The translations under genes were made by a program, and so were the position numbers. This document shows, in pieces, positions 14,290 to 43,665 of a stretch of DNA of 64,000 nucleotides. How positions within the stretch are numbered: the first letter of the stretch is position 1; every line of letters starts with the position of its first letter. Under the pieces are notes generated by a model, which made no database searches, was not told the origin of the DNA, and saw only the letters and a list, made by a program, of their open reading frames with translations. The stretch spans positions 36,441,703-36,505,702 of the forward strand of contig CP154954.1 of assembly GCA_039621445.1 (NCBI GenBank), in the 5' to 3' direction. This stretch comes from Euglena gracilis. Taxonomy: Eukaryota.

Positions 14290-16690
14290 GCCCCCGACGA
14301 ACTGGCGAGCCACGTTCCTCCACATTTTGGCCTGCAACAGTGGCCACCCAGCCAGACAGCACATCCACTTTTTGGTCTGCAACAGTGGCCCCGCAGCCAG
14401 CCAGTTCTGCCAGATGCTGCTGGCCTTCAACCTTCCCTCAGCAATATGAATTTGACAACCCCCAGGTTACCTCTCCGCTGACCGGAAAAGACCACCCAAC
14501 GTCGGCCAAACAAAGAAAAGTGCTTGTGCCTTACACTCCTGCGAAATACAGGACACAGCCTACACTGGCAGCATCGGGGGGAGCGGGCCGAGGTCGGTCT
14601 TTACTCAGCTGCGGGGACATTGAAAGTAACCCCGGACCTCCTACAGACCCACCATTTGTTCCGTGTGAGGATATTGACATGGCGCCAGCATCACAAATCT
14701 CCATCCCTCCTGCTGCACCACCGCCCGCAGAGCCCCCGTCGGTGGCGGGTGAGGACGTTGACATGGCGCCAGCATCACAAATTTCCATCCCGAGGGCCGG
14801 CTTCGATCGGTACCATCTTCTGGACGCGCGGCTTCGAGTCCCGATGAGCTAAACTCCGATCCGGGGGTGCACGGGACTTGAACCAGCCATGGCATACGGC
14901 GCTGCCAGGCGGGGTAAGGAATGGCTGCCATATGGCGGGAAGTTCCGATGGCGCCGAGGTAGAAATCAGCAACCAGAGGCTCGACCCTGGCGTGCCTGAT
15001 GGGTAAGGGCCGGCGAACCATAGATTCAACGGCGTTTGCCCACCTGACGTGTCACGATTAAACCATTGCGGCTTCGGCCGAGCAGTGACACCAAAGACAA
15101 GCAACCCCTATCAAGCACGCCATCGCCAAGCATCAGGAGCTGAGGCAAGGGATGGAGGACTCCGAGTGCCTCGAACCCTAGGGCTAATGCCCCCTGGCGG
15201 AGTGTAGCTCCACATCCGAGAAAGTGAAACGCTTGGGTCCAGCAAGTTTTTAAAAAAAAGTCGGCCCACCACCGTTGGAGGAGATTTGAGAGCAAAAAAG
15301 GGCATTTGTCATGGATTGCTACGGGGGCATGCGACAGGAAGCGCGCTCCTTGATGGCCACCCTCCTCAAGGCCCTTTTGGGGCAGCGGGAAGGGTGACAT
15401 CGGCCGCGGAAGCAGGCATTTGGCAAGGCCTTCCTTCACACTAATGAGAGAAATCAGCAGATAGCTCGTTCGGAGCTTGTATTCTTCCAAATATGAGATC
15501 ACCCTGTCTTCCGCCCACTCACCATATTCTGTCTGAAGGCCTTTGAGCTCTCAACAAAAATCACCAACATTGACCTCTCACCTGCCGTTTACACCCCAAG
15601 TTCAGATTACAAAATGAGCAAAGAAGGCACAACTCAGTAACCCCTAGTAACCCCTTGAGCAGAGCCACACGCCGAGCCAAAGACATATCAACGGATCACA
15701 AAGACGCGGAGAGAAGCAAAACACACAACAGCCAAAAACCCGACACAAACACGCCATCCCGTTTCAAAAGAGGTACAAACGCCCCCTCCCCGCCCAATAT
15801 ATATTGAAGGTGACCTTTGCTCATCTTCCTCTAACCACTAACCTCCGCACCCTGAACAAGCATCACTCAGCACTCTTTTGTACATTACACCCAGAGTATA
15901 AACAACCCGCGACGTGTGGCGGCACAGGGAGTAACAAGGGGGTTCCTCTTGTGGCGAGGGCCAAAAGAGACGTTTCCCTGGCCCGGGGCACGATTTGGGT
16001 GAAGCTGTGCTACCTACCGTGTGCTTCTGCAAAAAAGGCGAGGGCGAAAAGAGACGTTTACGTGGGCCCGGGGGACGGTTTGGGTGAAGCTGTGCTACCC
16101 ACCGTGTGTTCGTTATCACTAAAAAAAAGAGCCCATGTTCTCACGGCATTGGTGGAGGAAGGCGCACTGTCCAAGGCCGCTAAGCTGTTGGTGTCAAATG
16201 GGCTTGTCAACTCGCAGGAACCAGGTGTGGAAGCCGTACTGAGGGACCTCCATCCCCAGCACAGCCACACTTGGTCCCGGCAGGGGATTGGCCCACCTCG
16301 ATTGCCTGCCGCCTGGTGGACGAGGGCATGGACGAAGAGGAGAGCAACGAGCAGTGGTCCAAGCGGGCGGACCATCTGGGCTGCGTCCAATCCACCTCAG
16401 TGAAAGTTGCCGAAAGCTGGGGGGGGCCTGGTCCAAGCCCTCGGCAAGCTTGCTGCGACGGCCCTGACCACATCATTCCCGGAGAGCGTGCGAGAAGTGC
16501 TATGCGCCTCCACGCTCATCCCGCTCCGCAAGAAGGATGGGGGGTGTGCGGCTCATTGCTGTCGGGGACACCCTCCGGCGAGTGGCGGGCAAGTGCCTTC
16601 CCCATTCTGAAGCGGTGACGATAGAGTTGGCAGCCCCACAACCGCGGCAGTGCGGGGTGGGAGTGCGCAACGCCGCCGAGATGGTGGGCA
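14290..16690 (+). pseudogene. 5' part of a second decayed CRE-like non-LTR retrotransposon, with a T2A-like peptide
   Basis: GRGRSLLSCGDIESNPGP (core 14616-14639); LVEEGALSKAAKLLVSNG is homologous to LVERGATAKARQAMLSDG of element 1; ASTLIPLRKKDGG and IAVGDTLRR. The 5' boundary is approximate and 15060-15940 may be unrelated DNA. Confidence 0.7.
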
Positions 16691-17809
16691 TGACGACCTT
16701 TTGAGGTCGACCGCCGGGCGGCGGAGTTTTTCCCTTTTAGAAGGCCTTTTGAGGGCGGTTTTGCTCTAATTTTAAGGCTTTCTAAAGATTTTTATTAAAA
16801 TTCCCTCTCCTAGGGCGCCCATGGTTTGGTTGTGCAAGGAGAGAGATTGAGTGATGCTAGGTAATCCCAAGGGGTGATTTTGGGTTTATTTAGCACAATT
16901 TAAGCTTTTTATGCATTTTTCCTTTGGTTTTAAGGGAAAATGTTGGATTTGGTGAGAGCGCTTGCAAGCGCTTGGATCAGATTTTTCTGAGATTGGCGCC
17001 TGAGTTCCTGGAGTTTTTGCAGGGGTTTGCAAAGCTCAATAATGATGGAATTCAGCATGATTTATCAAAATCAAGGGGGGAAACCTTGATTTTGACATGG
17101 GTTGGTTGATTTTGATGCAATGGGCAAGGATTTGGGATTTGAGAGCGCTTAGGAATCAGCGCACTCAATCCTAAATTTAACTGCCCATCAAGGGCATCAA
17201 AATCACATTCCTCTTCACAGGGTTTTCCTCTATTTTCCTCTTCACTTGTTTCACCATTGCATTTGTTGTGTCAATTACAACCAATTACATTCAATCATTG
17301 AACTTGGATTTACAATTGGAATTGCAAATGGAAGGACAACAAATCAATCAAGAAAGCTCAATTGAAGAAGGTGAGGTTTGTCTTCCCCCCACCTCATCTG
17401 TGGGAAAAGGGGCAGGGGGGTGGGTCTCTTCAACTCAGGCAACCACAGGCCAAATTTCACCCCAAAACCCCCTTTTTGGCCCAGAAACGGTGAGAAATGA
17501 CACCCAGGGGGGGGTGTTGGCTCTCACTGGTTCAGCTGAGCAGGGAGGGGTTGAAACCCCAAAGGCACCCCCCTTGGAGATCCCAGTGACACCCCCGTCA
17601 GGGGTCGGGGAGGGTCCACTGGGAAGTTCCTCCTTGGAAATGATGGCCCAGTTTCGGCCACAGGGGGGGGGGCCAGAATGGGAAAAAATTTCCGACACAA
17701 GTCGGCTCGAGGAGCCAAAAAACGATCCTACGCCGGAAACTGGCCCGGGGCGGGGGTTTCCGCTTCACCCCAGTGCTGCCGGGGGACATGGCAGCACGGG
17801 GGTGAAACA
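16691..17809 (+). repeat. 5' LTR (1119 bp)
   Basis: TG...CA ends; direct repeat of 28791-29906; strong hairpin at 17764-17806. Confidence 0.95.
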
Positions 17810-20800
17810 TGGTAAGCAGAGGTTGATCCTTCAGCCTTCAGTCGGAAATTTTGGGTTGGAAATCCCTGCTCAGAATGTTTTCTTTGATGATCAGCCAATG
17901 GCCCAATCTCAGATGGCAAATCTGACGATTGGAGTTTCGGGGAACAGGGATTTGGGACCCGAAACCAGTTTGGCTGGACTCAGAACCCCCACAAATATGG
18001 GACAGATGTTGGAATTTCAGGGTGGGGATGGCCAGGTTGTCATTTCCAACCAACCGTGTTTTCCAGAGCCTTTTTCAGGGGTTTTGCCTTTGCAAAATAT
18101 GGGGTACGGTTTTGTGCTGCCTGAGTTGCAACCTCTCCCAGACTTTTCATGGGTGCAAAATTTAGGGAATCTGCCATCATTACCCGCTTTTGCATTGCCT
18201 TTGCCTCCAGCTCAACCAGTTTCTTCAACACCAGCCCAAGAGCCGGTGGCACTTTTGCAGTTTTCCCAACCATCCCAGGTAGATGGGCTGGCGAAGGAAA
18301 CGGCAAGTGCCTCGGCATGGCAGGGGGTGATAACCCCAGCCCAGTTTTCTTTGAAAAGCAAGCACAGGTCAATGTGCTGGGCTTAAACAATAATAATAAC
18401 TGGGACAGCAGCGAACGGGTCAGAGCAGAAGTCGAGCAGGCAGAGGAAAACCCGAAGGACCAGCCCAGCTCTACTTCTGCTCGACGACCCCGAACACCGG
18501 CTTCATCACCAGGCAGTGATGAAGTTCAGCAAAAACGGCTGCACCGTGAGGTTGATCACGGTCAGCCAGCAGCTGCTGCAGCCCCCCAGCCTCCTCATAT
18601 TTTCATCGAGGGGGGTGAGGAGGAGGTCCAACCCCCAGCCTATGAAAGTTCTGAAGCCACCCCCAGGGGGGGTTCACAAAATCAGGAATTTGAAGACCCC
18701 TGGGGGCAGTTTTTACAAAGTAACAGAGACCTCCAGTGGACTGTGCAGCACCTGACTTTTCGGGTTTTGGCTTTGGAAAAAGCCAACGAAGAGTGGGTTC
18801 TGCAGCAGCAGCAGCAACAACCCCCCGCAGTCGACATCCACCTGGTGGAGCACATGGCTGCACGAATCGAAGAAACGGCCAGGGCTGACTGCCTCCATAT
18901 TTTTGAACTTTTTGAGAAAAAATGTGAGGCCCAGGTGCAAATTTCTGTGCAAAAAATTGACGCACAGGCACTTGAACTTTTTGTCGGGCAGGAAAAAAGT
19001 TTTGAGGAAAAACTGGCCCAGCAGTTTTCTTCGAGCCGTGATCAGTTTTTGGCCCTGAGGCAGGAATTTTTACGAATTTTGGACAGCCTGCCACAGGAAA
19101 TTTTTAAGCAGGTGCAAAATCAGGTGGCTGCCTTACCAATTAAGGATCTCGTGCTTGAAAATTTTCAGCGGTTTGCTGAGAATTTTAAAGCCGCCCAGCC
19201 AGCTCAGGGGGGGGAGGCAGAAACTCTCCAGGAGCTGGCCGTTGTCGCTGCCAAAATCGTTGAAGTTCAGGCTGACCTGGTATCGCTGCGTAGTACGGTA
19301 CAGGGCCAGGCTCAGCAGCTCCAGCAGTTCGCTGATTATGTTCGCCAGCTGGGTGAGCAAAATTCAGCAATGAATACGGCCCTCCATAGTTTTGGTGGTG
19401 GTATTCAGAAACTGCACCAGAATATTTCAGATGAAGTAGGGAAACGACACTCAGAAATGCAAAAACTGTTGACGGATTGTCAGCAGAATTTTCAGAGTGT
19501 TCATCAGCAGATTTTTTCCCAGGAGAAAAAATTTGGTGGGCTGGTGGAGGAATTAAGGCAGGGACTTGCAAAAGTTGGGGGGAACACTTTCGAGTTGCAG
19601 AAAGTGTTGCAGGATTTACAAAAAAATGGACCCGTACACCCAACTGCAGAACCGAGAGGAGTTTTGCAAAAAAATTCTGACATGTGGTGGCTGCGGCAGG
19701 GCAGCCAGCAACCCCTGCACCCAGTTGGGCTGCCACAGCCTGGGCAGCAGCTGGCCCAGCAGCCTGTCATCCAGCTGGCCCAGCAGCCTGGCCAGCCAGC
19801 AGGCCAGCCGCAGCCTGCTCACGGGCTGCCAAGGGGGCTGGGCCTGCCGTCAGCTGGACAGCAGCAGCCCCTGGGGCAGCCTTCCAGCTCACTGGCCAGC
19901 ACGGTGCCCAGTGCTGACCCAGCTTTTTCAGATCAGATTATTTCTCAAAATAAATCTGCAGGTTCAAACATTTCCCCTCCCTTAGTTATTGAGGGGGGAT
20001 TTGTTTTGGAGGACACGCAAGACACGGCAGTGGTTTCTTCTGTGTCATTGTGTGTCCCTCCACACGTTTCTGCAGCCCCTGCTTTCTCGATTAGGCCTAT
20101 CGGGACAGGGGGGGCTGCAGCCAACCCAGGACACGGGTTGGGTTTTCCTTTTATCGGTGACCCAGTAGCTTTTGAAATTTTGCAGGGAGGTGCTAAGCCC
20201 TATTTTGATGAATCGGGCAGCATTTCCTGGCAAGATTTTGAAGTAGATTGGAATCTTTACTGGGACAGGTTGACATCAGGGAAACCGTATTCTGATTTGC
20301 AAAAGCTGCAGGTTTTTGAGGCATGTTTAGGACCCAGATTAAGGGAGGAAATCAGGCTCTATCGGTTGAATGGAGCTAAATTAAGTTACCCCACCATATT
20401 AGCCCAATTCCAGAACCGTTATGCCTCGAGTAAGGGGCTGACGGCTCGGAAAATATGGCAGGAGGTAACTATGGTAAACGAAGGAAAAATTACCCGGGCT
20501 GATCTGCAAGAATTTTGGATTAAATTTTGCAGTGCCTGGCACCATGTAAAGGATGCCACAGCCGGGGAGGCTCGGAGATTATTTTTGGAAAGAATTCCTC
20601 CTTTTTTAAGCAAGTTTTGCATAGAAGAGGAGGATAACCGAGCCCGTAAACAACCCATTGTCAGGCTCACAGGGATACCAAATCCCACGGTGGATGGGAT
20701 TAAAAGGAGTGTGAGCCAGATCACTGGGGGGATTGATCCACGGAAAGTGGTTATCAAAAACCCTGGTGCCATTTGCCTTATTTATTTCAGTTCTTCGGAG

Positions 20801-21520
20801 GAGGCACTGAAATTAACAGCCGTAAATGGAAGGAAATTGCAGGGAATGGAAAATTTCCTCAACGCCGAATTGGTGGAACAACTAATGACCGTTGAGGAAA
20901 TGTTTGCTTTTGCCGAGGGCAGGTTGGCTCTTCGGGAGAAGCAGGATTTGGCTTTGAATCAGCACCATTTTCCCAGATTATTCAGCAAATCAACAACAAA
21001 AGGCTCAGGGAAAATACAGGTGTTGGAAAAAGGCCAAACCCCCCCGGTGTCCCCAACCTCTGTGTCAACACCAGCGGCTGGGGGGCAGGGTCACACCTCA
21101 AAATCTGCCCCACAGCCAGCTCCAAAGGGAGATAAGGGGCCAGCCCAGCCAGCCCAGCGGGGCAGGTCCCCTTCTTCGTCTTCGCGGCCAGGTGCAGCTT
21201 CATGGTCGCGAACCCAAAGTCCAGCACCCCCAGCCCGGCAAGGCAAGGGGGGGCAGACCTGGACCCCGCAGGCATCGGGTAGGGGCAGGTCCCCATATCC
21301 ATGCTTCAACTGTGGGGAGTGCGGGCATTATTTTTATGAGTGTGAAAAACCGCTGAGTGAGGCCCTTGCTAAATCTAAGGATTTTTGGCAAAATAATGGA
21401 AAAGGCAAGGGGCAGCCCAAGGGTAAAGGGCAGCCAGCCACTCAGCGAAATTCCTCAGGCAAGGGGGGTGCATGGTCAAAGGGGGGTGGGCCCACCTCTT
21501 CTCCCCCTGGGGCCCAATAG
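17328..21520 (+). CDS. gag: Very long Gag-like protein (frameshift near 18350): P/G-rich N-terminus, coiled coil, capsid-like region, RRM-like insert, CCHC knuckle
   Basis: ORFs 17268-18386 and 18149-21520; CFNCGECGHYFYEC (21302-21343); TAG stop at 21518-21520. Confidence 0.75.
17810..17825 (+). promoter_or_regulatory. Primer-binding site, tRNA-iMet-like
   Basis: TGGTAAGCAGAGG directly follows the LTR and resembles the iMet-type PBS TGGTAGCAGAGG with one extra A. Confidence 0.7.
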
Positions 21521-21633
21521 GGGGGCCAGGGGCAGTTTGAGAAGGGGGGGCTGCCCATGGCCGTGTCTCTCCCCCCTGTGAGGAAAACGGTGTAAATATT
21601 TCTGATTCAAAAAACTGGGTTGTACAGGATTTT

Positions 21634-22848
21634 ATGGCTGATTCAGGGTGTGGTGAAAAACATTCTTTGGATCAGCCCCCCAGATTTTTGAATCGGACTC
21701 GTTACTCCTGGAGGGAAGGAAAATGTTCAAGGGTTCCCATTTTGCATTCAAACCTGCCACAGCCCAACCCCCCACCATCAGCCCAGCGACCTCAGGCATT
21801 AGATTTATTCGCTGGCACAGGTTCGGTGGGGAGGCGGTTGGCAGAAAGGGGGTATGAAGTTTTGTCAATTGAAAATGCTCCCTGGACGGACTTCCACCCC
21901 CACACAGACATTTTGACCTGGGACTACAGGCGATACCCGGTTGGATTTTTTGAGGTTATTGCCGCTAGTCCCCCCTGTAATATTTATTCCACGGCTTATA
22001 ACCCCAGGCCAAGGGATTTCTCCCAGGCGGATGCCCTGGTGGAGAAAGCCCTGGAAATTATAAATTATTTTCAGCCAAAGTTGTGGTGGTTGGAGAACCC
22101 CCGCACTGGTCTTTTGCGAAATAGGGAGGTGGTGAAAAACCTGCCCTATATCGACATTGATTATTGTCAGTTTTCGGATTGGGGTTATAAAAAGCCCACA
22201 CGCTTCTGGTGCTGCCCAGCCATTTCACAACTACGGTCGGTGTTGTGTGATGGCGAATCGTGTCCTAACCTGGTGATGGGGGACAATGGGCAGTTCCGGC
22301 ACCGTGAATTGTTGGGGGGCAGAAAAATGAAGTTTACCCCCCGACAAAAAGGAAGAATACCCCCCCTGGTGATTGATTATCTCCTAAGTGCTGGGGATTT
22401 TCTGGGGGGGCAGCCCAAAGAAATTTCCCAAAATTCCCAGGATTTTGAGGAATGGGAAATTCCAGACCGTTGTTGTCATTTGGCCAACACCTTGAAGGTT
22501 AATCAGGTGTTGCCCATTGAAAACGAGCTGCAACTTTTGATGCTATCACAGACGTATCTCCCTAACGGAGATACCAAGCAGCTCAAAGTTTTGGTGGACA
22601 CGGGAGCCCAGGTGAACCTGGTCAAAAGGTCCATCGTTCCAAAACATTTGGCCAGGTCACCACGAATGCCTATTCGGCTGGTGGCTGCCAATGGCCAATG
22701 TGTTTTGGGGGGCGACCAGTGTATTAAGTTGGAGTTGGGTTTTCAACGCAGGGGTACGGGGCAGGGGGGCACCCAGGCCTTGTACCTCGAAGGGGAATTC
22801 TACCTCGCGGATATTGAGGTAGATGCTATATATCATTTCCATGGTTAG
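21634..22848 (+). CDS. C5-cytosine DNA methyltransferase fused in frame to a retroviral-type aspartic protease
   Basis: Motif I LDLFAGTG, motif IV SPPC, motif VI LENP, motif VIII-like YKKPTRFW; then VLVDTGAQVNLV (22597). Confidence 0.9.
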   Translation: MADSGCGEKHSLDQPPRFLNRTRYSWREGKCSRVPILHSNLPQPNPPPSAQRPQALDLFAGTGSVGRRLAERGYEVLSIENAPWTDFHPHTDILTWDYRRYPVGFFEVIAASPPCNIYSTAYNPRPRDFSQADALVEKALEIINYFQPKLWWLENPRTGLLRNREVVKNLPYIDIDYCQFSDWGYKKPTRFWCCPAISQLRSVLCDGESCPNLVMGDNGQFRHRELLGGRKMKFTPRQKGRIPPLVIDYLLSAGDFLGGQPKEISQNSQDFEEWEIPDRCCHLANTLKVNQVLPIENELQLLMLSQTYLPNGDTKQLKVLVDTGAQVNLVKRSIVPKHLARSPRMPIRLVAANGQCVLGGDQCIKLELGFQRRGTGQGGTQALYLEGEFYLADIEVDAIYHFHG

Positions 22849-23254
22849 CCGAACATGGTTTGGGTGTGTTCCCACACCATAAGGCTTTGGTTTTTGACAA
22901 CCCTAATCTGACTTTCTTGTACGGGTGGGATACAAGAAATCAGAAACGGAAATCCCATAAGGGGAAGAAAAAACACAATTCACAAAAAAGAATTGGGGTT
23001 GTGGTTTCTGACTTCGGAGAATCCCCTGAAAACGCACCAACCACGGAGTCCCTTGAAAATGAAAAGGTGTGGTTGGACCTGCAAAAAATGAATTTGCACC
23101 TACCCTTGCAAGGCTTTGATATGCAACCAAAATTCCTTGGCAAGAAGGAATTGCATACCATAGCTCAGCATCTCACCGAATCACCAGCCGAGGACAAGGC
23201 AGTGAATGCCATAATCAGGCTCGCGACTCGGGTGAGAAGGAGGACCCCAGGGTA

Positions 23255-24117
23255 GTGGCATTTCGGAACAGAATTTTTCAGGATTTTGAAGGGGAGGTGT
23301 TGGGTACGGAGGTACCCCCTGACCCTCCCGTTCGGGGACCTTATGGGTACGCCCAGATTCCTCTGAAGGAGGGGGCTGTACCCACAAGGCAAAAACCTTT
23401 GTCTTACATGGTGAAAGATTTGAAGCTCACAAAAAGGTCACACAGGAATGGTGGGACCGGAAATTTGTTGAGCGTTTGCCCAAGGGAACAGTTTCGGAAT
23501 GGCTGTCCGTAACATTTGTAGTGCCGAAAAAAGGAGGCGAATGGAGGGGAGTGGTAGACATGCGGGGGCCTAACAGTCAAACTAGGCGTGTGTCCTACCC
23601 CCTTCCCGTAATTGAAGACCTCCTGGTAAAACAAGGTGGAAACATGATGTTTTCCATCTTGGATTTACGGCAGGCTTTCCACCAACAGCCGTTGGACCCG
23701 GAAAGCCGGCCCATCACATGTTGTAGTACCCCCCTCGGTCTTTTTCAGTGGAGGGTTAATGTGATGGGTCTAACAAACGCAAGCCATCATGTTCATCAAA
23801 TGATGGAGGATCGCCTCTTCCCGGTGGGGGACGTGGCTGATCCTTACATCGACGACATTTTGATTGGAACTCGAGTGGGTCCTGGTGAGGATTTACTCGC
23901 AGCACATGACAAGGATTTGCGAAGAGTCCTTGAAGTTTTACGAAAAGACAGATTTGTAGCCGACAAAAGAAAATGCCGTCTTTTCGTAAAAGAAGTTGAG
24001 TTTTGTGGCCATGTTCTGGGTGGTGGGGTGAGAAAACCATCCCCTGGAAAGCTAATGGCCATTGAAAAATGGGAGCTACCCCAAACAATCACGGGTCTAC
24101 GTGCTTTTTGGGGTTGA
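23255..24117 (+). CDS. pol: Ty3/gypsy reverse transcriptase (frameshifted)
   Basis: VPKKGGEWRGVVDMRGPN, LDLRQAFHQ, MGLTNA, YIDD (23845), VEFCGH. Confidence 0.92.
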
Positions 24118-24830
24118 CAAATTATTACAGCTCCTATGTGAAGGATTACGCCCACATTGTCGCTTGCCTTCAAGATAAGCTCAAAGTTTCTCGAGTGGAC
24201 GGCAAGAAGGGTTCCAAGAAAAGGATTTCTTGGGAACCATCCGACATTGAGGCATTTGAAAAAATTAAATCACTGTTGTGCAGTGAATTAATTTTACAAC
24301 ACGTTAAGCCAGACAAACCATTTGTTTTAAGAGTGGATGCCAGCCAGTATGCGGTTGGTGCCACCCTTGAACAATTGGTTGGGGAGGATAGGGCTCCTAC
24401 TCCTGAAGACGTACGGGCCAAGCGTACTGTGCCTGTCGCCTTCATGAGTAGGAAGCTAACGGGCAGCCAAAGAAACTGGGTACCTAGGGAACAGGAGACT
24501 TATGCCATAATCCTAGCCTTACAAAAGTGGGAATCATGGATTGGGCTGCAGCCCGTCCTGGTTCTCACGGACCACAAGGCTCTAGAATCTTGGGCTAGAG
24601 AGGTTCTAGACACACCAAGTGGTCCCATTGGGAGAAGGGCTAGGTGGCATCAGATTTTATCAAAATTTGACTGTCGGTTGGGTATATCCCGGGGCGGGAG
24701 AATACCATAGCCGATTTGTTGTCAAGATGGGCTTACCCGGCCTCCCAAGCCTTGAAGGACATTTCAAGGCATGGGTCAGCCCTTGACACCGAGGAAATGA
24801 GGGAAATCATTCAAACAGAAAAAATGGAGG
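24069..24830 (+). CDS. pol: RT connection and RNase H (frameshifted)
   Basis: FLGLTNYY, VDASQYAVGATL, EQETYAII, TDHKAL, ADLLSR. Confidence 0.9.
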
Positions 24831-25002
24831 AAGCCGAATGTATGTGGCTACGGTTGGTGGACCAACCAACCACAGCCAACACATACATTCGTGGAGTCAC
24901 CACACGGGGTGGTGCTACCACGGGGTCCGGGGACGCGGGTGGACGGTGCACACGACCGGGGGATAGGAAGTCAGAACCACTTGGAGGAACAAAACCCCAG
25001 GG

Positions 25003-26784
25003 TTGGGTTCAACCTCCACCCCCAAGGGAGAAAAAGGAAAACATGTTTCATTCTCAACTCGGGTTGACGAGTTTGGGAATGAGACAAGTCTTGTGGAGGA
25101 GGTCCAAGAGCCAAGGGGGGAGCATTTTCCATTGACACCCACTTCTATACCAGCTTCGCCAACAATGCCAACCCCTGAACCTGCTGCCGCGGCTACCACT
25201 GAGGTACCTGGGGCAGACCGAGAATCACCTGTGTTGTCTTCAGGTGGTTTGAGTGGTGAGGGGGGGGAAGCCACTTCTACAACCGATTCCTCACCCATCC
25301 CCCCTGGTTCTGTGTGGGATTTATCGTGGAAGGAGGAATATTTAAAATGTCCCCGTTGGTCACCAATTTTTCAGGCTACCCAGGATTCAAAGGTGCCGTG
25401 GCCTGAAAATATCAAGGTTTTTGGTGACAAAATGTTTTTCGAGGAGAGGCTTTGTGTGCCCAAATCTCTCCAAGAAAAACTCATTCGGGATCACCACTCA
25501 TACCAAGGGCATGTGGGATTCCCAAGGCTGTGGGAATGCATGTCCCTTAGGTATGATTGGGCTGATTCCTCACTCGCTCGAGATTTTGCTAAAGGAGTCA
25601 TGGGCCTTTGTGGGACTTGCCAAGCGTGCCGAAGGCCGGCGAGTCTTAAGGGTTTAGTGGAATCTACACCCATACCCCCAGCCGTAATGTATTCGGTGGC
25701 CCTTGACATGTTTAGCATGCCTCTCGTGGAGTGGGAAGGCAATTCTTACGACTCCATGCTTGTGTGTGTGGATCGTCACTCCGGTTGGATAGTGGCGATC
25801 CCCCACCTAGCAAAAGGATTTACGGGAGCCAAGGCAGCCAAGCAAATGCTGTTGCATGCTTGGCGACCTTTTGGCGTCCCTTCCATTATTACTTCCGATC
25901 TAGGCTCACACTTTGTCGCCGGTTGGTGGCAGACAATGTGTGCCTTGATGGGAATTAGGCAAGCCTACTCCCAGGCCTACCATCACCAGGCGAATGGTAG
26001 GGCGGAGAGGGCTGGCCAACAAATAATGGAACGGCTCAAAAAAATTCAGGTTGAGGACAAGTTGAATTGGGTTGAAGCCCTCCCCCAAGCACTAGATCGT
26101 ATCCATGATACGCCGGGGGAGAGTGGCCTAAGCCCATTTCAAATCTTGTTCGGTCGACACCATTCATTGGGCGGTCTACCTTATGAACCGTTAAGGGATT
26201 GTGAAGATGCCAGGTCATTTTTCTCTCGGCAAAGAGAAATTGATTTGGTAGTGGCTGGCAAAATGAATAATTTGCATGCCAAGCAATGTGCTCGGGCCAA
26301 CCGTGGTTTAGACGGTTGGGAGCCATTGGAGGTGGGGAATCTGGTGTGGTACCTGAGACCCCCCGATAGTGGCACAAAATTGGATTCCCGTTGGTTGGGC
26401 CCTTGCAAGGTTACCGCAAGGGAGGGAATTCATTCTTACCTGATTGAGGTTAAACCGGGCTATATTATGAAGGCCCATCGGAAGGCTTTGAAGGTGTATG
26501 TGGAGGACCCCACATCCGATAAGCCTATCCCCCTGTTTTTCCACCGGCGGACGGTACCTGAGGCGGAAGGTGCCCCAGATACCTGGTTAGTGGATAAAAT
26601 CCTAAACCACAAATTCGTTAAGGGAAAAATGTTTTTCTTAACGAAGTGGCAAGGGTTTGAGGAAGCGAATTGGGAACCGGTGGAACATTTTTTCCAGGAG
26701 TACAATGGCGACGTAATAGCGTATTGCCTGGGAAAAGGGTTGCCGTTAGATGTCTCTAAGGATTTAAAGGCAACGGCAACCTGA
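25003..26784 (+). CDS. pol: Integrase with C-terminal chromodomain
   Basis: HHCC zinc domain; D (VALD), D (TSDLGSHF), E (GRAER); WLGPCKV; chromodomain WLVDKILNHK...FLTKWQGFEEANWEP. Confidence 0.93.
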   Translation: MGSTSTPKGEKGKHVSFSTRVDEFGNETSLVEEVQEPRGEHFPLTPTSIPASPTMPTPEPAAAATTEVPGADRESPVLSSGGLSGEGGEATSTTDSSPIPPGSVWDLSWKEEYLKCPRWSPIFQATQDSKVPWPENIKVFGDKMFFEERLCVPKSLQEKLIRDHHSYQGHVGFPRLWECMSLRYDWADSSLARDFAKGVMGLCGTCQACRRPASLKGLVESTPIPPAVMYSVALDMFSMPLVEWEGNSYDSMLVCVDRHSGWIVAIPHLAKGFTGAKAAKQMLLHAWRPFGVPSIITSDLGSHFVAGWWQTMCALMGIRQAYSQAYHHQANGRAERAGQQIMERLKKIQVEDKLNWVEALPQALDRIHDTPGESGLSPFQILFGRHHSLGGLPYEPLRDCEDARSFFSRQREIDLVVAGKMNNLHAKQCARANRGLDGWEPLEVGNLVWYLRPPDSGTKLDSRWLGPCKVTAREGIHSYLIEVKPGYIMKAHRKALKVYVEDPTSDKPIPLFFHRRTVPEAEGAPDTWLVDKILNHKFVKGKMFFLTKWQGFEEANWEPVEHFFQEYNGDVIAYCLGKGLPLDVSKDLKATAT

Positions 26785-28039: not shown

Positions 28040-28430
28040 ACCTCCCCACCGGGGGGGGGGGGCAAGGCAAGCCCTCCCTTTGCCCGGGGGGGGGGGGGGG
28101 GTTGCCCAAGGCTTTCCCCTCGGGGGGGGGGGGGGCAAGGCAAGCCCTCCCTTTGCCCGGGGGGGGGGGGGGGGGGCGGTTGCCCAAGGCTTTCCCCTCG
28201 GGGGGGGGGGCAAGTCAAGCCCACCTCTCGCCGGGGGGGGGGGCAATCTTCTCCCCAAGTCTTTCCCCTCGGGGGGGGGGGGGGCAAGTCAAGCCCACCT
28301 CTCGCCGGGGGGGGGCAATCTTCTCCCCAAGTCCTTCCCCTCGGGGGGGGGGGGCAAGTCAAGCCCACCTCTCGCCGGGGGGGGGGGGAAGCTTATCCCC
28401 AAGGCCTTCCCCTCGGGGGGGGGGGGCTGA
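28040..28430. repeat. G/C-run tandem repeats (~60-bp units) in the 3' internal region of the LTR element
   Basis: Repeated GGCAAGGCAAGCCCTCCCTTTGCCC and GGCAAGTCAAGCCCACCTCTCGCC units separated by G-runs. Confidence 0.85.
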
Positions 28431-28780
28431 TTTGCATCTATCGCCGAAAGGATTTTTGGTGATAATGAACCCTCCATTCCCTTCACGGTTGGGAATACCG
28501 TGGGGGGGGGGGGCTGATTTTTATCCATTCAAGAAAGGATTTTTTTTGAGTGGTGTTGGACCCCCATTTCCTTTCACGGTGGTGAGAACCGTGGGGGGGG
28601 GGCTCGGTGTGGTGGAACGGGATCTATGGGTTATAGATTCCTCCTCACCGTTACGCCACCACCTATGCACGTTGCCGAACAATGTTGTCGCAATTGCGTT
28701 GCAAAAATTCAAAGTGTCTTTCATTCCCATCCCAAGGAAAGCGAGAAGGAGGGGGGGTGAAACCCCCGACTTTCGTCGCA

Positions 28781-28790
28781 AGGGGGGGAG
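28781..28790 (+). promoter_or_regulatory. Polypurine tract
   Basis: AGGGGGGGAG immediately before the 3' LTR. Confidence 0.85.
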
Positions 28791-29906
28791 TGACGACCTT
28801 TTGAGGTCGACCGCCGGGCGGCGGAGTTTTTCCCTTTTAGAAGGCCTTTTGAGGGCGGTTTTGCTCTAATTTTAAGGCTTTCTAAAGATTTTTATTAAAA
28901 TTCCCTCTCCTAGGGCGCCCATGGTTTGGTTGTGCAAGGAGAGAGATTGAGTGATGCTAGGTAATCCCAAGGGGTGATTTTGGGTTTATTTAGCACAATT
29001 TAAGCTTTTTATGCATTTTTCCTTTGGTTTTAAGGGAAAATGTTGGATTTGGTGAGAGCGCTTGCAAGCGCTTGGATCAGATTTTTCTGAGATTGGCGCC
29101 TGAGTTCCTGGAGTTTTTGCAGGGGTTTGCAAAGCTCAATAATGATGGAATTCAGCATGATTTATCAAAATCAAGGGGGGAAACCTTGATTTTGACATGG
29201 GTTGGTTGATTTTGATGCAATGGGCAAGGATTTGGGATTTGAGAGCGCTTAGGAATCAGCGCACTCAATCCTAAATTTAACTGCCCATCAAGGGCATCAA
29301 AATCACATTCCTCTTCACAGGGTTTTCCTCTATTTTCCTCTTCACTTGTTTCACCATTGCATTTGTTGTGTCAATTACAACCAATTACATTCAATCATTG
29401 AACTTGGATTTACAATTGGAATTGCAAATGGAAGGACAACAAATCAATCAAGAAAGCTCAATTGAAGAAGGTGAGGTTTGTCTTCCCCCCACCTCATCTG
29501 TGGGAAAAGGGGCAGGGGGGTGGGTCTCTTCAACTCAGGCAACCACAGGCCAAATTTCACCCCAAAACCCCCTTTTTGGCCCAGAAACGGTGAGAAATGA
29601 CACCCAGGGGGGGGTGTTGGCTCTCACTGGTTCAGCTGAGCAGGGAGGGGTTGAAACCCCAAAGGCACCCCCCTTGGAGATCCCAGTGACACCCCCGTCA
29701 GGGGTCGGGGAGGGTCCACTGGGAAGTTCCTCCTTGGAAATGATGGCCCAGTTTCGGCCACAGGGGGGGCCAGAATGGGAAAAAATTTCCGACACAAGTC
29801 GGCTCGAGGAGCCAGAAAACGATCCTACGCCGGAAACTGGCCCGGGGCGGGGGTTTCCGCTTCACCCCAGTGCTGCCGGGGGACATGGCAGCACGGGGGT
29901 GAAACA
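28791..29906 (+). repeat. 3' LTR (1116 bp)
   Basis: Direct repeat of 16691-17809. Confidence 0.95.
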
Positions 29907-32279
29907 TCCGGCGAGTGGCGGGCAAGTGCCTTCCCCATTCTGAAGCGGTGACGATAGAGTTGGCAGCCCCACAACCGCGGCAGTGCGGGGTGGGAGTGCG
30001 CAACGCCGCCGAGATGGTGGGCATGCGCCTGCAACGCTGCGTCTAGCCAAGCCACCTCCAAGGGGACAACGACTACGTGGTGTTGCAGGTGGATATGCGC
30101 AATGCCTTCAACTCCACCAGCAGGGATGCAATGCTCCGGGGGTGCTTGGCCAAGGTACCCACGGCGTACAACTGGCTGCGCTTTTGCTACAGTGGATTAA
30201 GTCCGTTGTTTTGCCAAGGGCGCTTCCTATGTACAAGCCAGATCGGAATGCATCAATGCGACGCATTGGGCTTTGCACTGGGCTTGGACTACGCCCTTGA
30301 CTAGTGATTTGCCCGGGACTTGGCATGGGAGCCTTGGTACCTCGACGACGGCCACATCGTGGGGAAACCAGCGTTGGCGTTGGCCCGCCTCCATGGCCTC
30401 GGCACGGTCTGGGAGCGAGTAGGCCTCCACCCCAATTTGGCCAAGTGCAAATTTTGGGGACCTGGGATGCAAACGGTCAATCAAGCCGGGCCACATTACC
30501 CAGAAGGTTTGGCAAAAGGCCACTTGGGACGACAAGTGCCCATGATTCCCTTTGGAGGACCGAAGGGCATCACGACCCTGGCCGTCCCAATTGATGCCCC
30601 GCGGGAGCATCGCACAGCACAAGAGGACACGCCAAGAGCACCGCAATGCCAAGCTGTATAGGAAGAGACCGTGGACATGGCGACCTTGCTCTTGGAACGG
30701 CTCAGGGGATACCCAGAGGGGCAAGTGCGGCACGCACTTTTGCGGTAGTGTCTTGACGGATGTCTGGTGGTCCAGCTCCTCCGATCAACAGAGAGAGAAA
30801 ACACACGGGACTCCCCGCTCATTCTCAGGGCACGGCTGCAGGAAGCCATACAAGATCCCCTCGGACTGGGAATCACCGAAAGTTCATGGGATCAGGTCTC
30901 CCTGCCCCTCCGCCAAGGAGGACTCGGAATCTCGGACCCCGAAGTGTTGCAACCCGCGGCACGTATGGCGGCCTTGCTGAACCTGGGGATGCACGGCAGC
31001 CAAGCGGTGGGGGTGCCAGCCTCGGCGTTGGCAACCCCATCCCCGGACATGCAAGACATGGTACAACGGTTGCGGCAACAGCTTGGCCCCAACATGGATC
31101 CCGTGGCCAGCTGGCTCGCGGGCACCACCCCACTCTCCTCCGCAGCACCAGAACACGCCACCCAACGGTGGTGGGCTTAGAAAGTGGCGTAAAAGCAGAG
31201 CCAGCGAGTGGACGCGGTCGGCTCTGCCAGGGACCGGGTGAGACGGGCTTGCCAAAAGGGACCGGTGGCAACAGGATGGCTGCAGACTTTGCCCAGCAAG
31301 GCACAGCACACAGCTTTCTCGGACACCCAATACTAGCTGCTACTGCGGTGGTGGCTTGGCCTGCCCATCCTCCCTTCAGGGGTCACGTTGCCGGGGTGGT
31401 CCCGTGTCCCGGGGTCACTTCGTCTGCTGCGAGCAGAAAGGAAATACCCAACGGCACAATGCATTCCGAGATGCTTTTGCGGCGATGTGTGCCTGGTACA
31501 ATATTGCGGCGGAGAAGGAGGTAGAGTGTTTGGCGAACAAAAGACCAGCCGATGTTCTCCTCATCAACATGTCACGGGAGCAACAAGTGGCAGTCGATTT
31601 CGTCTACAGCCACCCCGTGGGGCTGAGAGAGCACCCACTGGTGGTGGACAATGCCCGCAGGCATTGCAACCAGGTGGAAACCAGGAAAGTGCAAAACGGA
31701 TGGGCCCCTTCAGCAAAGGGGTGGAGCTTCTCACCCTTCGGCCTGAGCACATGGGGAGGCCTGGGTACCTCTGCCAAGGCGGTGCTGTCTGAGGTCACCA
31801 AAATGGCCACCGCAGACATGCGGGGATGGCAAAGACAAGGGCCCTGCAAGAAATGCAGGTAGCATTATCGGAGACACTCATGCGCCACGTGGCGCGGAAG
31901 CTATCCGCCAGGGACCGCGTGGAGGAGGCCCTGCACCCATGGTAAGTCCCCAACTCCCACCGCAGACCACACCAAAAGCGAGCAAGACCAAGACCAAGAG
32001 GGCCACAACCCACAAAGTGCGGAGGTTCACCACGGAAACACCTCCCCCCCCCCCAAAACGCGGCCCCCCGCACAAAAAAAACCAAATAAAAGAGAAGCCG
32101 CCAAAAAAAAAGAGCCCACACGCCAGGCGAAAGGTATCCGGCCAACGAGGCGACAAAGGGGAGTGGAGCCGGCAAAAGCAAGACACACGCAAAGTGTAGC
32201 CCGCCCGACCTGGACTCCACAAGGTGAGAAGAGAGTGCACGCGCGACCCAGCAAGCCGGCTATCGCCCCTAAAAAAAAA
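29907..32279 (+). pseudogene. 3' part (RT-RLE-3'UTR) of the second CRE-like element, with many stops
   Basis: VDMRNAFNS, WYLDDG, LRQGGLGI, HFVCC..RHN, RPADVLL..VAVD; the A-run at 32271-32279 is taken as the approximate end. Confidence 0.85.
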
Positions 32280-32906
32280 GTTCTCACGCTCTCCCAGTTA
32301 TTTTTCTTCGCTTTGTTGGCGTGGGCTTGCTGGTGTTTCATAAGCAAAGGGATCAAGACGAGGAAACAAGGAAGCTGAGGTGAGGGTTTCAGCCGTGAAG
32401 CAAGTATAGTCAATCGGTAAGAAATTTAACAGGTGTGGTTGAGATGATGGGGGCATCAACGCGTCTCTTCGAACAATTTGAGCTTGAATTGCTGTTGGGC
32501 TGATAAACTAAAAGACCAAAAATACAGGACATTTTGGGAATCTTTTGGAACCATTTCCGAAAGGGTGGCCCTTTTTTGTTGGCTTGAAATAAATTCCATT
32601 TCCACAGGATTTTCGCTGAAATCGCCAGTGAAGGACCCTTCGTTCTCAAAGCCACGCTATTCCGCCAACAGAGATTCTTCCCCAACAATGTCAAAACTTA
32701 AAACTTGGCAGCGGGTCGGCATGCGTGGGGGCAACGGAGGTTCGTCGACCGGGTCTCTGGGGTACGCTGGCCTGCAGGGTAGGTACGCGCTGTGGGGGGA
32801 GCGATTGGGTGGTGGACGGTGGGGCAGGGGAAAGGATGCGCAGTAGAGCGCATCCCTCGCTGACGCGGATCGCACGGAGACGGGGCGGGCGAAAATGGAA
32901 TGGAAA

Positions 32907-43584: not shown

Positions 43585-43585
<1 letters not shown>

Positions 43586-43664: not shown

Positions 43665-43665
<1 letters not shown>

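What the first reader, a model, noticed from the sequence alone, without database searches (positions are those of the whole stretch)
21634..26784. Chromodomain LTR retrotransposon whose pol starts with a C5-cytosine DNA methyltransferase fused to the protease
Seen: one ORF holds the C5-MTase motifs DLFAGTG, SPPC (catalytic Cys intact), ENP and YKKPTRFW, and runs in frame into the DTG protease, followed by RT, RNase H, integrase and a chromodomain. Known: DNMT-carrying retrotransposons have been described in dinoflagellates and charophytes; I know of no euglenid case. Inference: the MTase is cleaved from Pol and packaged, so it could methylate the new cDNA. The element would pair an epigenetic writer with a chromatin reader, for self-marking or evasion of host defence.
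Basis: partly seen in the sequence, partly recalled or inferred. Interest (0 to 1): 0.9.

Follow-up and report, generated by a model that had tools for sequence, protein, structure and literature searches.

The report
Retrotransposon carrying its own cytosine methyltransferase
This is a young chromodomain LTR retrotransposon whose polyprotein begins with a small virus-type DNA cytosine methyltransferase; it is a close but adenine-methylase-less cousin of the 'EpiLTR' elements described in Euglena gracilis in 2026.

Summary
ORF 21541-22848 carries C5-methyltransferase motifs (DLFAGTG, SPPC, ENP, YKKPTRFW) in frame with a DTG protease. RT, RNase H, integrase and a chromodomain follow.

The element spans 16691-29906. 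It has near-identical TG..CA LTRs, a CCHC gag and a 117-nt flanking duplication.

The frame breaks in pol are single-base gaps next to same-base runs. Contigs from independent runs lack these gaps.

The methyltransferase is real and under constraint:
- 2688 representative homologues were found.
- The catalytic residues are invariant.
- pN is below pS in 10 of 10 pairs.
- Retroelement copies form one clade; the nearest outsiders lie on dsDNA-virus contigs.

Intact environmental polyproteins share the same domain order.

By RT-RNase H the window groups with methyltransferase-only elements. These are sister to a group that holds a Euglena gracilis transcript and the Dam+methyltransferase forms. 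No Dam domain is present here.

A 2026 preprint already describes Euglena LTR elements with Dam, DNMT and a chromodomain. This is therefore a new variant of a known kind. cDNA methylation remains an inference.

The parts
16574..16690 (+). Left copy of a 117-nt direct duplication of target sequence. It lies inside a LINE-like RT reading frame.
   Evidence: Identical to 29907-30023. The translation across the flanks reads RT-like motifs.
16691..17809 (+). 5' LTR, TG...CA termini
   Evidence: Matches 28791-29906. The two LTRs differ by one substitution and by the length of one G run.
17810..17829 (+). Primer-binding-site-like sequence starting TGG, directly after the LTR
   Evidence: Read from the sequence. 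No tRNA gene in the window to compare it with.
18125..21520 (+). gag-like ORF (1131 aa stop to stop; first ATG at 18149). CCHC zinc knuckle at 21302-21343. Ends in TAG at 21518-21520.
   Evidence: Pfam gives only weak coiled-coil-type matches.
21541..22848 (+). First pol ORF: C5-methyltransferase followed in frame by the aspartic protease
21802..22371 (+). Methyltransferase core, about 190 aa. Motif I DLFAGTG, catalytic SPPC, ENP, DYC, YKKPTRFW, CDGESC, RHRELLGG, IPPLV.
   Evidence: Motif coordinates. Every family-invariant residue is present. No indel against read contigs inside this span (table 4, rows shown).
22597..22608 (+). Protease active site DTGA
   Evidence: Aligned with the protease regions of P0001, P0032 and P0212-P0215.
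23323..24117 (+). Reverse transcriptase (YIDD at 23845-23856)
   Evidence: PF00078, E 2.2e-18. 70-75% identical to P0212-P0215.
24066..24710 (+). RNase H
   Evidence: PF17917, E 4.5e-25. 77-80% identical to P0212-P0215.
24967..26784 (+). Integrase (HHCC at 25492-25629, rve core) with a C-terminal chromodomain (26584-26724)
   Evidence: The chromodomain is below the Pfam cut-off here but above it in relatives P0032 and P0079.
21543..25002 (+). Seven single-base gaps of the window relative to read-derived contigs, at 21543, 22830, 23215, 23395, 24104, 24670 and 25002. Six cause the frame breaks in pol; the first sets the gag/pol frame.
   Evidence: table 4. Each gap lies next to a run of the same base. 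The frame path comes from tblastn.
28042..28426 (+). G-rich tandem repeats of about 72 nt in the 3' untranslated region
   Evidence: (family D2).
28780..28790 (+). Polypurine tract AAGGGGGGGAG directly before the 3' LTR
   Evidence: Read from the sequence.
28791..29906 (+). 3' LTR
29907..30023 (+). Right copy of the 117-nt target duplication

Best explanation
SHOWN: a 13.2-kb Ty3/gypsy-type, chromovirus-like LTR retrotransposon (16691-29906), recently inserted into a LINE-like element. Its order is LTR, gag (CCHC), TAG, then pol = compact C5-cytosine methyltransferase, aspartic protease, RT, RNase H, integrase and chromodomain, then LTR.

The methyltransferase belongs to a family of 'mini' C5-methyltransferases about 205 aa long. 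It has motif I, a catalytic Pro-Cys, ENP, a K-P/R-T-R-x-W motif and four invariant Cys/His residues.

In my sample the retroelement-borne copies form one clade. The nearest outsiders sit on dsDNA-virus contigs. In related elements the module occupies different places in Pol, with or without a Dam-type adenine methylase.

The window's lineage is the methyltransferase-only sister of the group that holds a Euglena gracilis transcript and the Dam+methyltransferase ('EpiLTR'-type) forms.

INFERRED:
- The enzyme is made as part of Gag-Pol. After the one-base correction seen in reads, gag and pol share a frame, separated by a single TAG, so Gag-Pol would need stop-codon read-through.
- It is carried into the particle and methylates the element's own new cDNA, or DNA at the integration site.
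- In a host whose CG sites are methylated by default, the new copy would then resemble host DNA. The chromodomain steers integration.
- The four invariant Cys/His residues probably bind zinc.

The confidence given covers the whole statement. The anatomy and family assignment alone I hold at about 0.9, and the cDNA-methylation role at about 0.5.
For: Anatomy:
-.

Family assignment:
- PHROG 757 and 363 give E 4e-11 and 1e-10.
- PF00145 matches at E<=0.01 in 8 of 10 long relatives and at E<=1e-3 in 26 of 36.
- A profile of 48 sequences hits DNMT1 structures across motifs IV-VI at E 2.9e-5.
- Annotated phage C5-methylases match at about 28-35% identity, E down to 8e-15.

Constraint on the domain:
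- G18, C72 (the PPC cysteine), S76, E111, P113, C135, T146, C167 and P200 are invariant in 48 sequences that are 36-51% identical to the window.
- The same residues, plus K144, R147, C162 and H180, are 94-100% conserved in both the 89-row retroelement clade and the 131 other rows.
- pN (0.20-0.43) is below pS (0.73-0.88) in 10 of 10 pairs of five stop-free methyltransferase ORFs.
- Identity of the window to P0212-P0215 is 56-59% in the methyltransferase, against integrase 54-58%, protease 40-48%, chromodomain 38-44%, RT 70-75% and RNase H 77-80%.

Not a chimera:
- Uninterrupted polyproteins of 1735-1916 aa have the same order (P0212-P0215).
- Single ORFs occur in L002, L004 and L009.
- A 2159-nt contig of run X8 spans 22249-24403 (table 8).

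Intact frame elsewhere:
- Read contigs carry one extra base at each of the seven breaks. This holds for every contig spanning the place in X8, and in X4 at all places but one (23395: 24.2 of 58.1 depth). In X1 only part of the depth shows it (table 4).

Clade structure:
- FastTree, 220 rows: all 10 rows with retroelement context and both Dam rows fall in an 89-row clade (support 98) that holds none of the 53 viral rows.
- IQ-TREE quick, 86 rows: a 40-row set with SH-aLRT 99.
- 0 of 80 viral loci and 4 of 80 metagenome loci have RT, integrase or protease beside the methyltransferase.

Placement of the element:
- RT-RNase H tree, 51 rows: window plus P0212-P0215 at 97. A 19-row clade at 99 joins them to the group of P0221 (Euglena gracilis) and P0216-P0218 (methyltransferase-Dam-protease).

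Host context (preprint, section 10, read):
- The window's CpG observed/expected ratio is 0.56, against 0.94 for GpC.
Against: - No activity, target sequence, cleavage site or packaging was tested.
- The window's own PF00145 score is below Pfam's cut-off (19 against 22 bits). NCBIfam finds nothing.
- No structure could be predicted, because the tool was not ready. The completeness of the fold, with a target-recognition part of only about 40-50 aa, and the zinc site are therefore unverified.
- The element is not clearly more CpG-depleted than its flanks (0.49 against 0.54-0.60). This gives no signature of self-methylation.
- In run X1 most of the depth at the break sites shows no extra base (for example 9211 of 114435 at 24104). 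Many copies may truly carry the gaps, or short contigs may hide them.
- Rare copies with the methyltransferase deleted exist in X1 (joints 21925>22449 and 21911>22768, one contig each). The domain is thus dispensable for persistence of a copy.
- RNA downstream of the TAG folds no better than shuffles (z 0.25). The TAG could be private to this copy.
- The preprint places the Euglena and Cymbomonas DNMTs as sister to DNMT4. My viral-outgroup result used no reference eukaryotic DNMTs, so a viral origin is not established.
- The flanking duplication is 117 nt, not the 4-6 nt usual for such integrases (recalled).
Confidence: 0.6

Rival explanations
1. The domain is conserved and catalytic but does not act on the element's double-stranded cDNA. 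It might methylate RNA (the genomic RNA or the tRNA primer, as DNMT2 does for tRNA), or single-stranded or hybrid replication intermediates. It might instead serve as a DNA- or chromatin-binding tether.
For: - The target-recognition part is very short: about 40-50 aa between KPTRFW and IPPLV.
- De Mendoza et al. 2018 (PMC5890265, discussion read) raised RNA methylation for SymbioLINE-Dnmt, which failed to methylate DNA in yeast.
- No excess CpG depletion of the element over its flanks.
Against: - The closest relatives outside retroelements are stand-alone genes of about 200-213 aa on dsDNA-virus contigs, beside other DNA methylases.
- Annotated phage relatives are named DNA cytosine methylases.
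- Profile matches to solved structures are to DNMT1, not DNMT2.
Confidence: 0.2
2. The methyltransferase mainly benefits the host, or limits the element itself. It would mark new insertions for silencing, in line with the chromodomain steering them to heterochromatin, rather than camouflaging or protecting the cDNA.
For: - De Mendoza et al. 2018 list this option.
- The preprint reports low or undetectable LTR expression in E. gracilis.
- 7 of the 24 listed transitions among copies involve CpG sites.
Against: - The family is very abundant in the runs of organism A: 7828 contigs were laid in X1.
- The LTRs of this copy differ by one substitution, so the lineage is not visibly held back.
- No direct test either way.
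Confidence: 0.12
3. The methyltransferase is a passenger: a captured viral gene fragment that is inert and drifting.
For: - The window's Pfam score is sub-threshold.
- Copies with the domain deleted exist.
Against: - Catalytic and structural residues are invariant across clades.
- pN is below pS in 10 of 10 pairs.
- Conservation equals that of integrase.
- 23 of 50 related polyproteins keep the domain, in several positions.
Confidence: 0.05
4. Assembly or nesting artefact: the methyltransferase belongs to another inserted sequence, or to a mis-join, and not to this element's pol.
For: - The window has single-base errors or gaps in pol.
- The preprint warns of chimeric transposable elements and assembly artefacts in E. 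gracilis.
Against: - The methyltransferase and protease share one ORF in the window.
- They also share ORFs in independent assemblies: P0001, P0032, P0212-P0215 and L002.
- Contigs of other runs bridge gag to pol and methyltransferase to RT (table 8).
Confidence: 0.02

Closest known systems
Euglena gracilis 'EpiLTRs' / Euglena DAM-LTRs (Fernandez-Moreno et al., bioRxiv 10.64898/2026.05.21.726589; abstract and sections 5-8, 10, 11, 13 read)
   Same: - Ty3/gypsy-like LTR element with a chromodomain and a C5-methyltransferase in pol.
- By RT-RNase H the window lies in a 19-row clade (SH-aLRT 99) with EukProt Euglena_gracilis_P000113 and with methyltransferase-Dam-protease polyproteins.
- The methyltransferase modules are homologous, at 51-54% identity.
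   Different: - No Dam domain here: tblastn with two Dam queries and a motif scan were both negative.
- The four closest polyproteins also lack Dam.
- Identity to the named E. gracilis transcript is only 67% in RT and 53% in integrase.
- I could not compare with the preprint's own sequences, because supplements are closed.
KnitGypsy-Dnmt3 of Klebsormidium nitens (de Mendoza et al. 2018, PMC5890265; sections 6, 7, 9, 11 read)
   Same: - An LTR Gypsy-type element with a DNMT inside the Pol ORF.
- The DNMT is under purifying selection.
- The same idea applies: methylation of the new cDNA.
   Different: - That DNMT is a Dnmt3 of host origin. This one is a methyltransferase of about 205 aa whose nearest outsiders are viral. 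At E<=0.01 its profile finds only DNMT1 among solved DNA methyltransferases.
- That element's repeats are DIRS-like; here there are plain LTRs.
SymbioDIRS-Dnmt3 and SymbioLINE-Dnmt of Symbiodinium (same paper)
   Same: Retrotransposons that encode a cytosine methyltransferase. SymbioDIRS-Dnmt3 methylated CG de novo (abstract).
   Different: They belong to other retrotransposon classes (DIRS with a tyrosine recombinase; LINE ORF1) and other DNMT lineages.
Chromoviruses (Ty3/gypsy elements with a chromodomain at the end of integrase; recalled)
   Same: LTRs, gag CCHC, protease-RT-RNase H-integrase-chromodomain order, TG..CA termini.
   Different: - An extra methyltransferase ahead of the protease.
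- A 117-nt rather than a short target duplication.
- Ordinary chromovirus-like polyproteins (P0259-P0261) are only 25-34% identical and serve as the outgroup.
Small C5-methyltransferases of dsDNA viruses (PHROG 757/363; IMG/VR contigs)
   Same: Same motifs and the same invariant Cys/His set. 34-44% identity over about 200 aa on 80 viral loci.
   Different: Those are stand-alone genes beside primase, ribonucleotide reductase and other methylases. None of the 80 has RT, integrase or protease nearby.

Membership tests
C5 cytosine methyltransferase superfamily (PF00145) | Motif I, S-adenosyl-methionine binding FxGxG | tested here: met
   DLFAGTG at 21802-21822. G18 is invariant in 48 sequences.
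C5 cytosine methyltransferase superfamily (PF00145) | Motif IV, catalytic Pro-Cys | tested here: met
   SPPC at 21967-21978. The Cys is 99-100% conserved in both clades. It aligns with PPCQ of DNMT1.
C5 cytosine methyltransferase superfamily (PF00145) | Motif VI, ENV-type glutamate | tested here: met
   ENP at 22093-22101. E and P are 100% conserved. Aligned with LENV of DNMT1.
C5 cytosine methyltransferase superfamily (PF00145) | Motifs VIII-X and a target-recognition domain (complete fold) | tested here: inconclusive
   Candidates are conserved (KPTRFW; IPPLV). The Pfam match covers only profile positions 5-113 of 324.
C5 cytosine methyltransferase superfamily (PF00145) | Score above Pfam's gathering cut-off | tested here: not met
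   The window scores 19 bits against 22. Relatives pass: P0053 29.1, P0026 27.2, P0032 25.3.
C5 cytosine methyltransferase superfamily (PF00145) | 5mC-forming activity | not testable with these tools
   Needs an enzyme assay or methylome data.
Ty3/gypsy chromovirus-like LTR retrotransposon | Two direct LTRs with TG..CA ends, a PBS after the 5' LTR and a PPT before the 3' LTR | tested here: met
Ty3/gypsy chromovirus-like LTR retrotransposon | gag with a zinc knuckle; pol order protease-RT-RNase H-integrase | tested here: met
Ty3/gypsy chromovirus-like LTR retrotransposon | Chromodomain at the C-terminus of integrase | tested here: inconclusive
   Chromo scores 21 bits against a cut-off of 25.1, E 3.2e-4. 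The homologous region of P0032 (28.2 bits) and P0079 (32.3 bits) passes.
Ty3/gypsy chromovirus-like LTR retrotransposon | Short (4-6 nt) target-site duplication (recalled) | tested here: not met
   The flanks share a 117-nt identical duplication instead.
EpiLTR (Fernandez-Moreno et al. 2026) | Dam-type adenine methyltransferase domain in the element | tested here: not met
   No tblastn hit at E<=0.01 with the Dam parts of P0044 and P0053. No [DNS]PP[YFW] motif in a coding part. No Dam match in Pfam for the six ORFs.
EpiLTR (Fernandez-Moreno et al. 2026) | DNMT domain plus chromodomain in an LTR element | tested here: met
EpiLTR (Fernandez-Moreno et al. 2026) | DNMT in the clade sister to DNMT4, together with the Cymbomonas elements | not tested
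   No reference DNMT4 or Cymbomonas sequences were at hand; supplements are closed.
EpiLTR (Fernandez-Moreno et al. 2026) | Host is Euglena gracilis | not testable with these tools
   No genome is held and run organisms are coded. The best protein identities in the database are 76% (methyltransferase fragment) and 59% (integrase). The nearest named relative is E. gracilis.
Dnmt3-bearing retrotransposons (KnitGypsy-Dnmt3, SymbioDIRS-Dnmt3) | The DNMT domain is of the Dnmt3 family | tested here: not met
   The profile search of solved structures lists only DNMT1 and generic methyltransferases at E<=0.01, and no DNMT3 chain. The nearest relatives are viral mini-methyltransferases.

The most novel reading that the evidence does not exclude
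A whole, environmentally widespread lineage of chromovirus-like retrotransposons carries a mini C5-methyltransferase. It was captured once from a dsDNA virus and then moved around inside Pol: before the protease, between protease and RT, or between RNase H and integrase. It was repeatedly combined with a Dam methylase. The methyltransferase-only form seen here is the state from which the Euglena 'EpiLTRs' arose. The enzyme, with a conserved Cys3-His site, methylates the cDNA inside the particle so that new copies enter a fully CG-methylated genome already looking like host DNA.
Probability: 0.3. Interest if true: 0.7.

Novelty: new variant of a known kind. Interest (0 to 1): 0.45.

Why it matters
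Retrotransposons that carry their own DNA-methylation enzymes turn the usual picture, in which methylation silences transposons, on its head.

This element shows that the Euglena-type 'epigenetic toolkit' elements have a sister form with the cytosine methylase only. The methylase is a very small virus-like enzyme. The module has been moved around within Pol in many uncultured eukaryotes.

That gives a compact enzyme to test for cDNA methylation. It also gives a natural series of architectures, with and without Dam, for asking what each writer contributes.

The basic phenomenon has been in print since 2018, and for Euglena since May 2026.

Tried and rejected
Database and family searches that gave nothing:
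- NCBIfam: no match for the methyltransferase-protease ORF.
- Single-sequence search of solved structures: only E 0.13 to DNMT1. The profile search did better.
- Dam domain: sought by tblastn, by motif (the only hits lie in G-rich repeats) and by Pfam. Absent.
- A second copy in the window: none.
- Rfam and tRNA scan: nothing in the window, so no help with the host or the primer.

Tests that were uninformative:
- Read-through structure after the TAG: folding energy no better than shuffles, z 0.25.
- dN/dS: synonymous sites are saturated in most pairs (7 of 10). Only pN<pS and three ratios (0.05-0.21) can be given.
- Same-genome dN/dS could not be done, because read laying gives summaries only. 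Of the 40 listed differences of 303, 24 are synonymous and 16 are not, and none lies in the methyltransferase core.
- Integrase searches for a near-identical named protein: best 59% identity, and no EukProt hit in the near-length search.

No fold search was therefore possible.
- Two literature searches timed out. They were repeated in other words.

Weak hints only:
- Run X20 is a leaf-litter metatranscriptome. It holds 0.26 of the sampled words and had 31 contigs laid, with three of the 30 depth bins uncovered. It sits in an RNA library but is not shown to be transcribed.
- Runs labelled 'RNA?' are guesses.

Not used: complex prediction, because no binding claim is made.

Full report
**1. The observation**

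A stop-to-stop scan under the standard code gives ORF 21541-22848 (435 aa). It holds these motifs, all in one frame:
- DLFAGTG at 21802-21822
- SPPC at 21967-21978
- ENP at 22093-22101
- DYC at 22159-22167
- YKKPTRFW at 22186-22209
- IPPLV at 22357-22371
- DTGA at 22597-22608

Downstream Pfam finds:
- RVT_1 (E 2.2e-18, 23323-24117)
- RT_RNaseH (E 4.5e-25, 24066-24710)
- In 24967-26784: rve (E 2.5e-9), Integrase_H2C2 (E 4.9e-4) and Chromo (E 3.2e-4, 21 bits against a cut-off of 25.1)

Upstream lies a gag-like ORF, 18125-21520, with a CCHC knuckle at 21302-21343.

**2. Is the methyltransferase real?**

Pfam alone is weak: PF00145 gives 19 bits against a cut-off of 22, E 1e-3. NCBIfam finds nothing. 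Other evidence is strong:
- PHROG DNA-methyltransferase families 757 and 363 match at E 4.1e-11 and 1e-10.
- An exhaustive HMMER search of 1.84 billion representatives with window:21763-22455 found 2688 proteins at E<=1e-3, 1268 at E<=1e-10 and 186 at E<=1e-30. The best is E 7.6e-71 at 51% identity.
- PF00145 is matched at E<=0.01 by 8 of 10 long relatives and at E<=1e-3 by 26 of 36 others.
- A profile of 48 sequences hits DNMT1 structures at E 2.9e-5, aligning motif IV (PPC) and motif VI (ENV).
- Cultured phage genomes hold annotated C5-cytosine methylases at about 28-35% identity, E down to 8e-15; 62 records matched.

In the 48-sequence alignment G18, C72 (the PPC cysteine), S76, P105, E111, P113, C135, T146, C167 and P200 are invariant.

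In a 220-sequence alignment the same residues, plus K144, R147, C162 and H180, are 94-100% conserved. This holds both in the retroelement clade (89 rows) and in the remaining 131 rows. The window has every one of them.

C135, C162, C167 and H180 look like a Cys3-His metal site. That is my inference.

Five methyltransferase ORFs for which DNA was at hand (window, L001-L004) have no stops. They show pN 0.20-0.43 against pS 0.73-0.88 in 10 of 10 pairs.

**3. The element**

- **LTRs.** They are 16691-17809 and 28791-29906, begin TG and end CA. They differ by one substitution and by three bases in the length of one G run.
- **Priming sites.** A TGG-initiated primer-binding-like site follows the 5' LTR. 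AAGGGGGGGAG precedes the 3' LTR.
- **Flanking duplication.** The element is flanked by an identical 117-nt direct duplication (16574-16690 = 29907-30023). This lies inside a LINE-like RT reading frame that continues across the empty site. Such a long target duplication is not what this kind of integrase is known for (recalled). I leave it unexplained.
- **Copy number in the window.** There is only one copy.

**4. The frame breaks**

tblastn with intact relatives shows pol running through frames 1>3>2>1>3>2>1, each step a shift of -1.

I laid contigs of four public runs on 18100-26800. They carry one extra base at 21543, 22830, 23215, 23395 (or 23397), 24104, 24670 and 25002.
- In X8, and in X4 at all places but one (23395: 24.2 of 58.1 depth), every contig that spans the place has the extra base.
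- In X1 only part of the depth does, for example 30883 of 43203 at 21543 and 9211 of 114435 at 24104 (table 4).

Each place adjoins a run of the same base. I read these as homopolymer under-calls of a long-read assembly, or else as private deletions of this copy. Either way, intact copies exist.

With the extra G at 21543, gag and pol are in one frame, separated only by TAG 21518-21520. That suggests stop-codon read-through. Two points weaken this:
- The RNA after the stop folds no better than shuffles (z 0.25).
- None of 27 relatives with 100 or more residues upstream of the methyltransferase has a CCHC in the same ORF. That fits a gag/pol boundary there, but not a specific mechanism.

**5. 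Relatives and architecture**

All the nearest proteins come from unnamed environmental assemblies. A search with the integrase ORF among longer proteins returned 50 polyproteins. By BLAST against the window's domains:
- 23 of 50 hold the methyltransferase, 15 hold a Dam-type domain and 9 hold both.
- Many of the rest are cut short at the N-terminus.

The four closest (P0212-P0215, 1735-1916 aa) are uninterrupted and have exactly the window's order. Their identities to the window are:

| Domain | Identity |
|---|---|
| Methyltransferase | 56-59% |
| Protease | 40-48% |
| RT | 70-75% |
| RNase H | 77-80% |
| Integrase | 54-58% |
| Chromodomain | 38-44% |

The methyltransferase is therefore as conserved as integrase.

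Other orders occur:
- methyltransferase-Dam-protease (P0216-P0218, P0236)
- methyltransferase-protease-Dam (P0223, P0226)
- protease-methyltransferase-RT (P0248, and with Dam in P0251 and P0254)
- RT-RNase H-methyltransferase-integrase (P0238, P0252, and L004 as one 1488-aa ORF)

In an RT-RNase H tree of 51 rows (IQ-TREE quick, LG+G4):
- The window groups with P0212-P0215 (SH-aLRT 97).
- This group lies in a 19-row clade (99) with the group of P0216-P0218 and P0221.
- P0221 is EukProt EP00667_Euglena_gracilis_P000113. It is the only named relative found.

**6. Where the methyltransferase comes from**

Pattern scans found 558 relatives in metagenome contigs and 164 in IMG/VR viral contigs; 80 of each were kept.
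- RT, integrase or protease lie beside the methyltransferase in 4 of the 80 metagenome loci and in 0 of the 80 viral loci.
- On the viral contigs sampled it is a stand-alone gene of about 200-246 aa. Its neighbours include a D5-type primase, ribonucleotide reductase, endonuclease VII, a glycosyltransferase and other DNA methylases.
- One contig carries a giant-virus label in its name.

In a FastTree of 220 rows, all 10 rows with retroelement context and both Dam rows fall in one 89-row clade (support 98) with none of the 53 viral rows. An IQ-TREE quick run on 86 rows gives the matching 40-row set SH-aLRT 99 (134 rows were left out by random sampling).

This fits a single capture of a virus-type enzyme. 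However, the trees are unrooted and hold no reference eukaryotic DNMTs. The preprint places the Euglena and Cymbomonas DNMTs as sister to DNMT4. I could not test that.

**7. Abundance and variation**

- Of the 24 runs listed, 20 hold the stretch or a part of it, across 15 studies. The organisms are coded A-D, plus one leaf-litter metatranscriptome.
- In X1, 7828 contigs were laid, so the family has many copies.
- Of the 40 best-supported differences shown (of 303), 35 lie before the methyltransferase core (32 in gag) and none within it. 24 are synonymous and 16 are not. 7 of the 24 transitions touch CpG sites.
- Two X1 contigs skip most of the methyltransferase (21925>22449 and 21911>22768), so deleted derivatives exist at low depth.
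- CpG observed/expected is 0.49 in the element and 0.54-0.60 in the flanks, with GpC at 0.85-0.97. The whole region looks CG-methylated over evolutionary time. The element shows no clear extra depletion.

**8. Mechanism**

Shown: a conserved, apparently complete catalytic motif set inside Pol, in a lineage that keeps it under selection.

Inferred:
- The enzyme is translated as part of Gag-Pol and enters the particle.
- It methylates the new cDNA or the integration site.
[quoted passage not shown] In such a host, self-methylation would let a new copy match host DNA.
- De Mendoza et al. 2018 proposed the same for SymbioDIRS-Dnmt3 and showed de novo CG methylation by retrotransposon DNMTs (abstract and discussion).

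Rivals are an RNA or hybrid substrate, a self-limiting or host-serving role, an inert passenger, and an artefact.

**9. Comparison and novelty**

The concept dates from 2018 (PMC5890265; sections 6, 7, 9, 11 read).

For Euglena, bioRxiv 10.64898/2026.05.21.726589 (May 2026) describes LTR elements with a chromodomain, Dam and DNMT, and names them EpiLTRs. Its screen began from Dam domains. Full-text searches for Euglena + retrotransposon + DNMT, for Euglena gracilis + genome assembly + LTR + methyltransferase and for retrotransposon + DNMT + chromodomain + Ty3 gave no other relevant paper.

Three things are not in the parts of that preprint I could read, and may be in its supplements, which are closed:
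- the Dam-less, methyltransferase-first form seen here
- the virus-like affinity of the enzyme
- the several positions of the module in Pol

I rate this a new variant of a known kind, of moderate interest.

**10. Limits**

- No structure prediction, fold search or Atlas look-up could be run.
- The host could not be named.
- Activity is untested.

Noticed in passing
window 16574-16690 and 29907-30023: An identical 117-nt direct duplication of target sequence flanks the element. This is far longer than the few bases usual for integrase-made duplications. The target is a LINE-like RT reading frame that reads through across the empty site.
   Followed up: partly
window 30325-45289 and 45291-60189 (also 63184-63999): A tandem duplication of about 15 kb (12.7 kb at 99.3% plus 2.2 kb at 98.2%). 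Each unit holds a long RT-bearing ORF (33519-36491; 48486-51401, PF00078 E 8e-22). A third, 90%-identical piece lies at the window's end.
   Followed up: no
window 28042-28426: Five copies of a repeat of about 72 nt made of long G runs, in the 3' untranslated part just upstream of the polypurine tract.
   Followed up: no
window 9145-13035: Tandem repeats of about 870 nt at 96-97% identity, next to another RT-bearing ORF at 6982-8181.
   Followed up: no
L004 1-4467; P0238, P0252, P0079: Relatives with the methyltransferase between RNase H and integrase in one uninterrupted ORF. Other relatives have it between protease and RT, or next to a Dam domain on either side.
   Followed up: partly
L100, L101, L088, L083, L138, L081 (IMG/VR contigs): The viral homologues are stand-alone genes of about 200-246 aa. 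Their neighbours are further DNA methylases (N6_N4, EcoRI-like), a D5-type primase, the ribonucleotide reductase small chain, endonuclease VII and a TET-associated glycosyltransferase. Several contigs have 25-29% G+C.
   Followed up: partly
window 1-64000: CpG is depleted throughout (observed/expected 0.56) while GpC is not (0.94). This is what long-standing CG methylation would leave.
   Followed up: no
window 21911-22768 (run X1): Two contigs of run X1 join 21925 to 22449 and 21911 to 22768. These are copies that have lost most of the methyltransferase. They occur at low depth relative to the family (table 5).
   Followed up: no
window 21518-21550: With the extra G seen in reads, gag and pol are in one frame with a single TAG between them. 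No special RNA structure follows the stop.
   Followed up: partly
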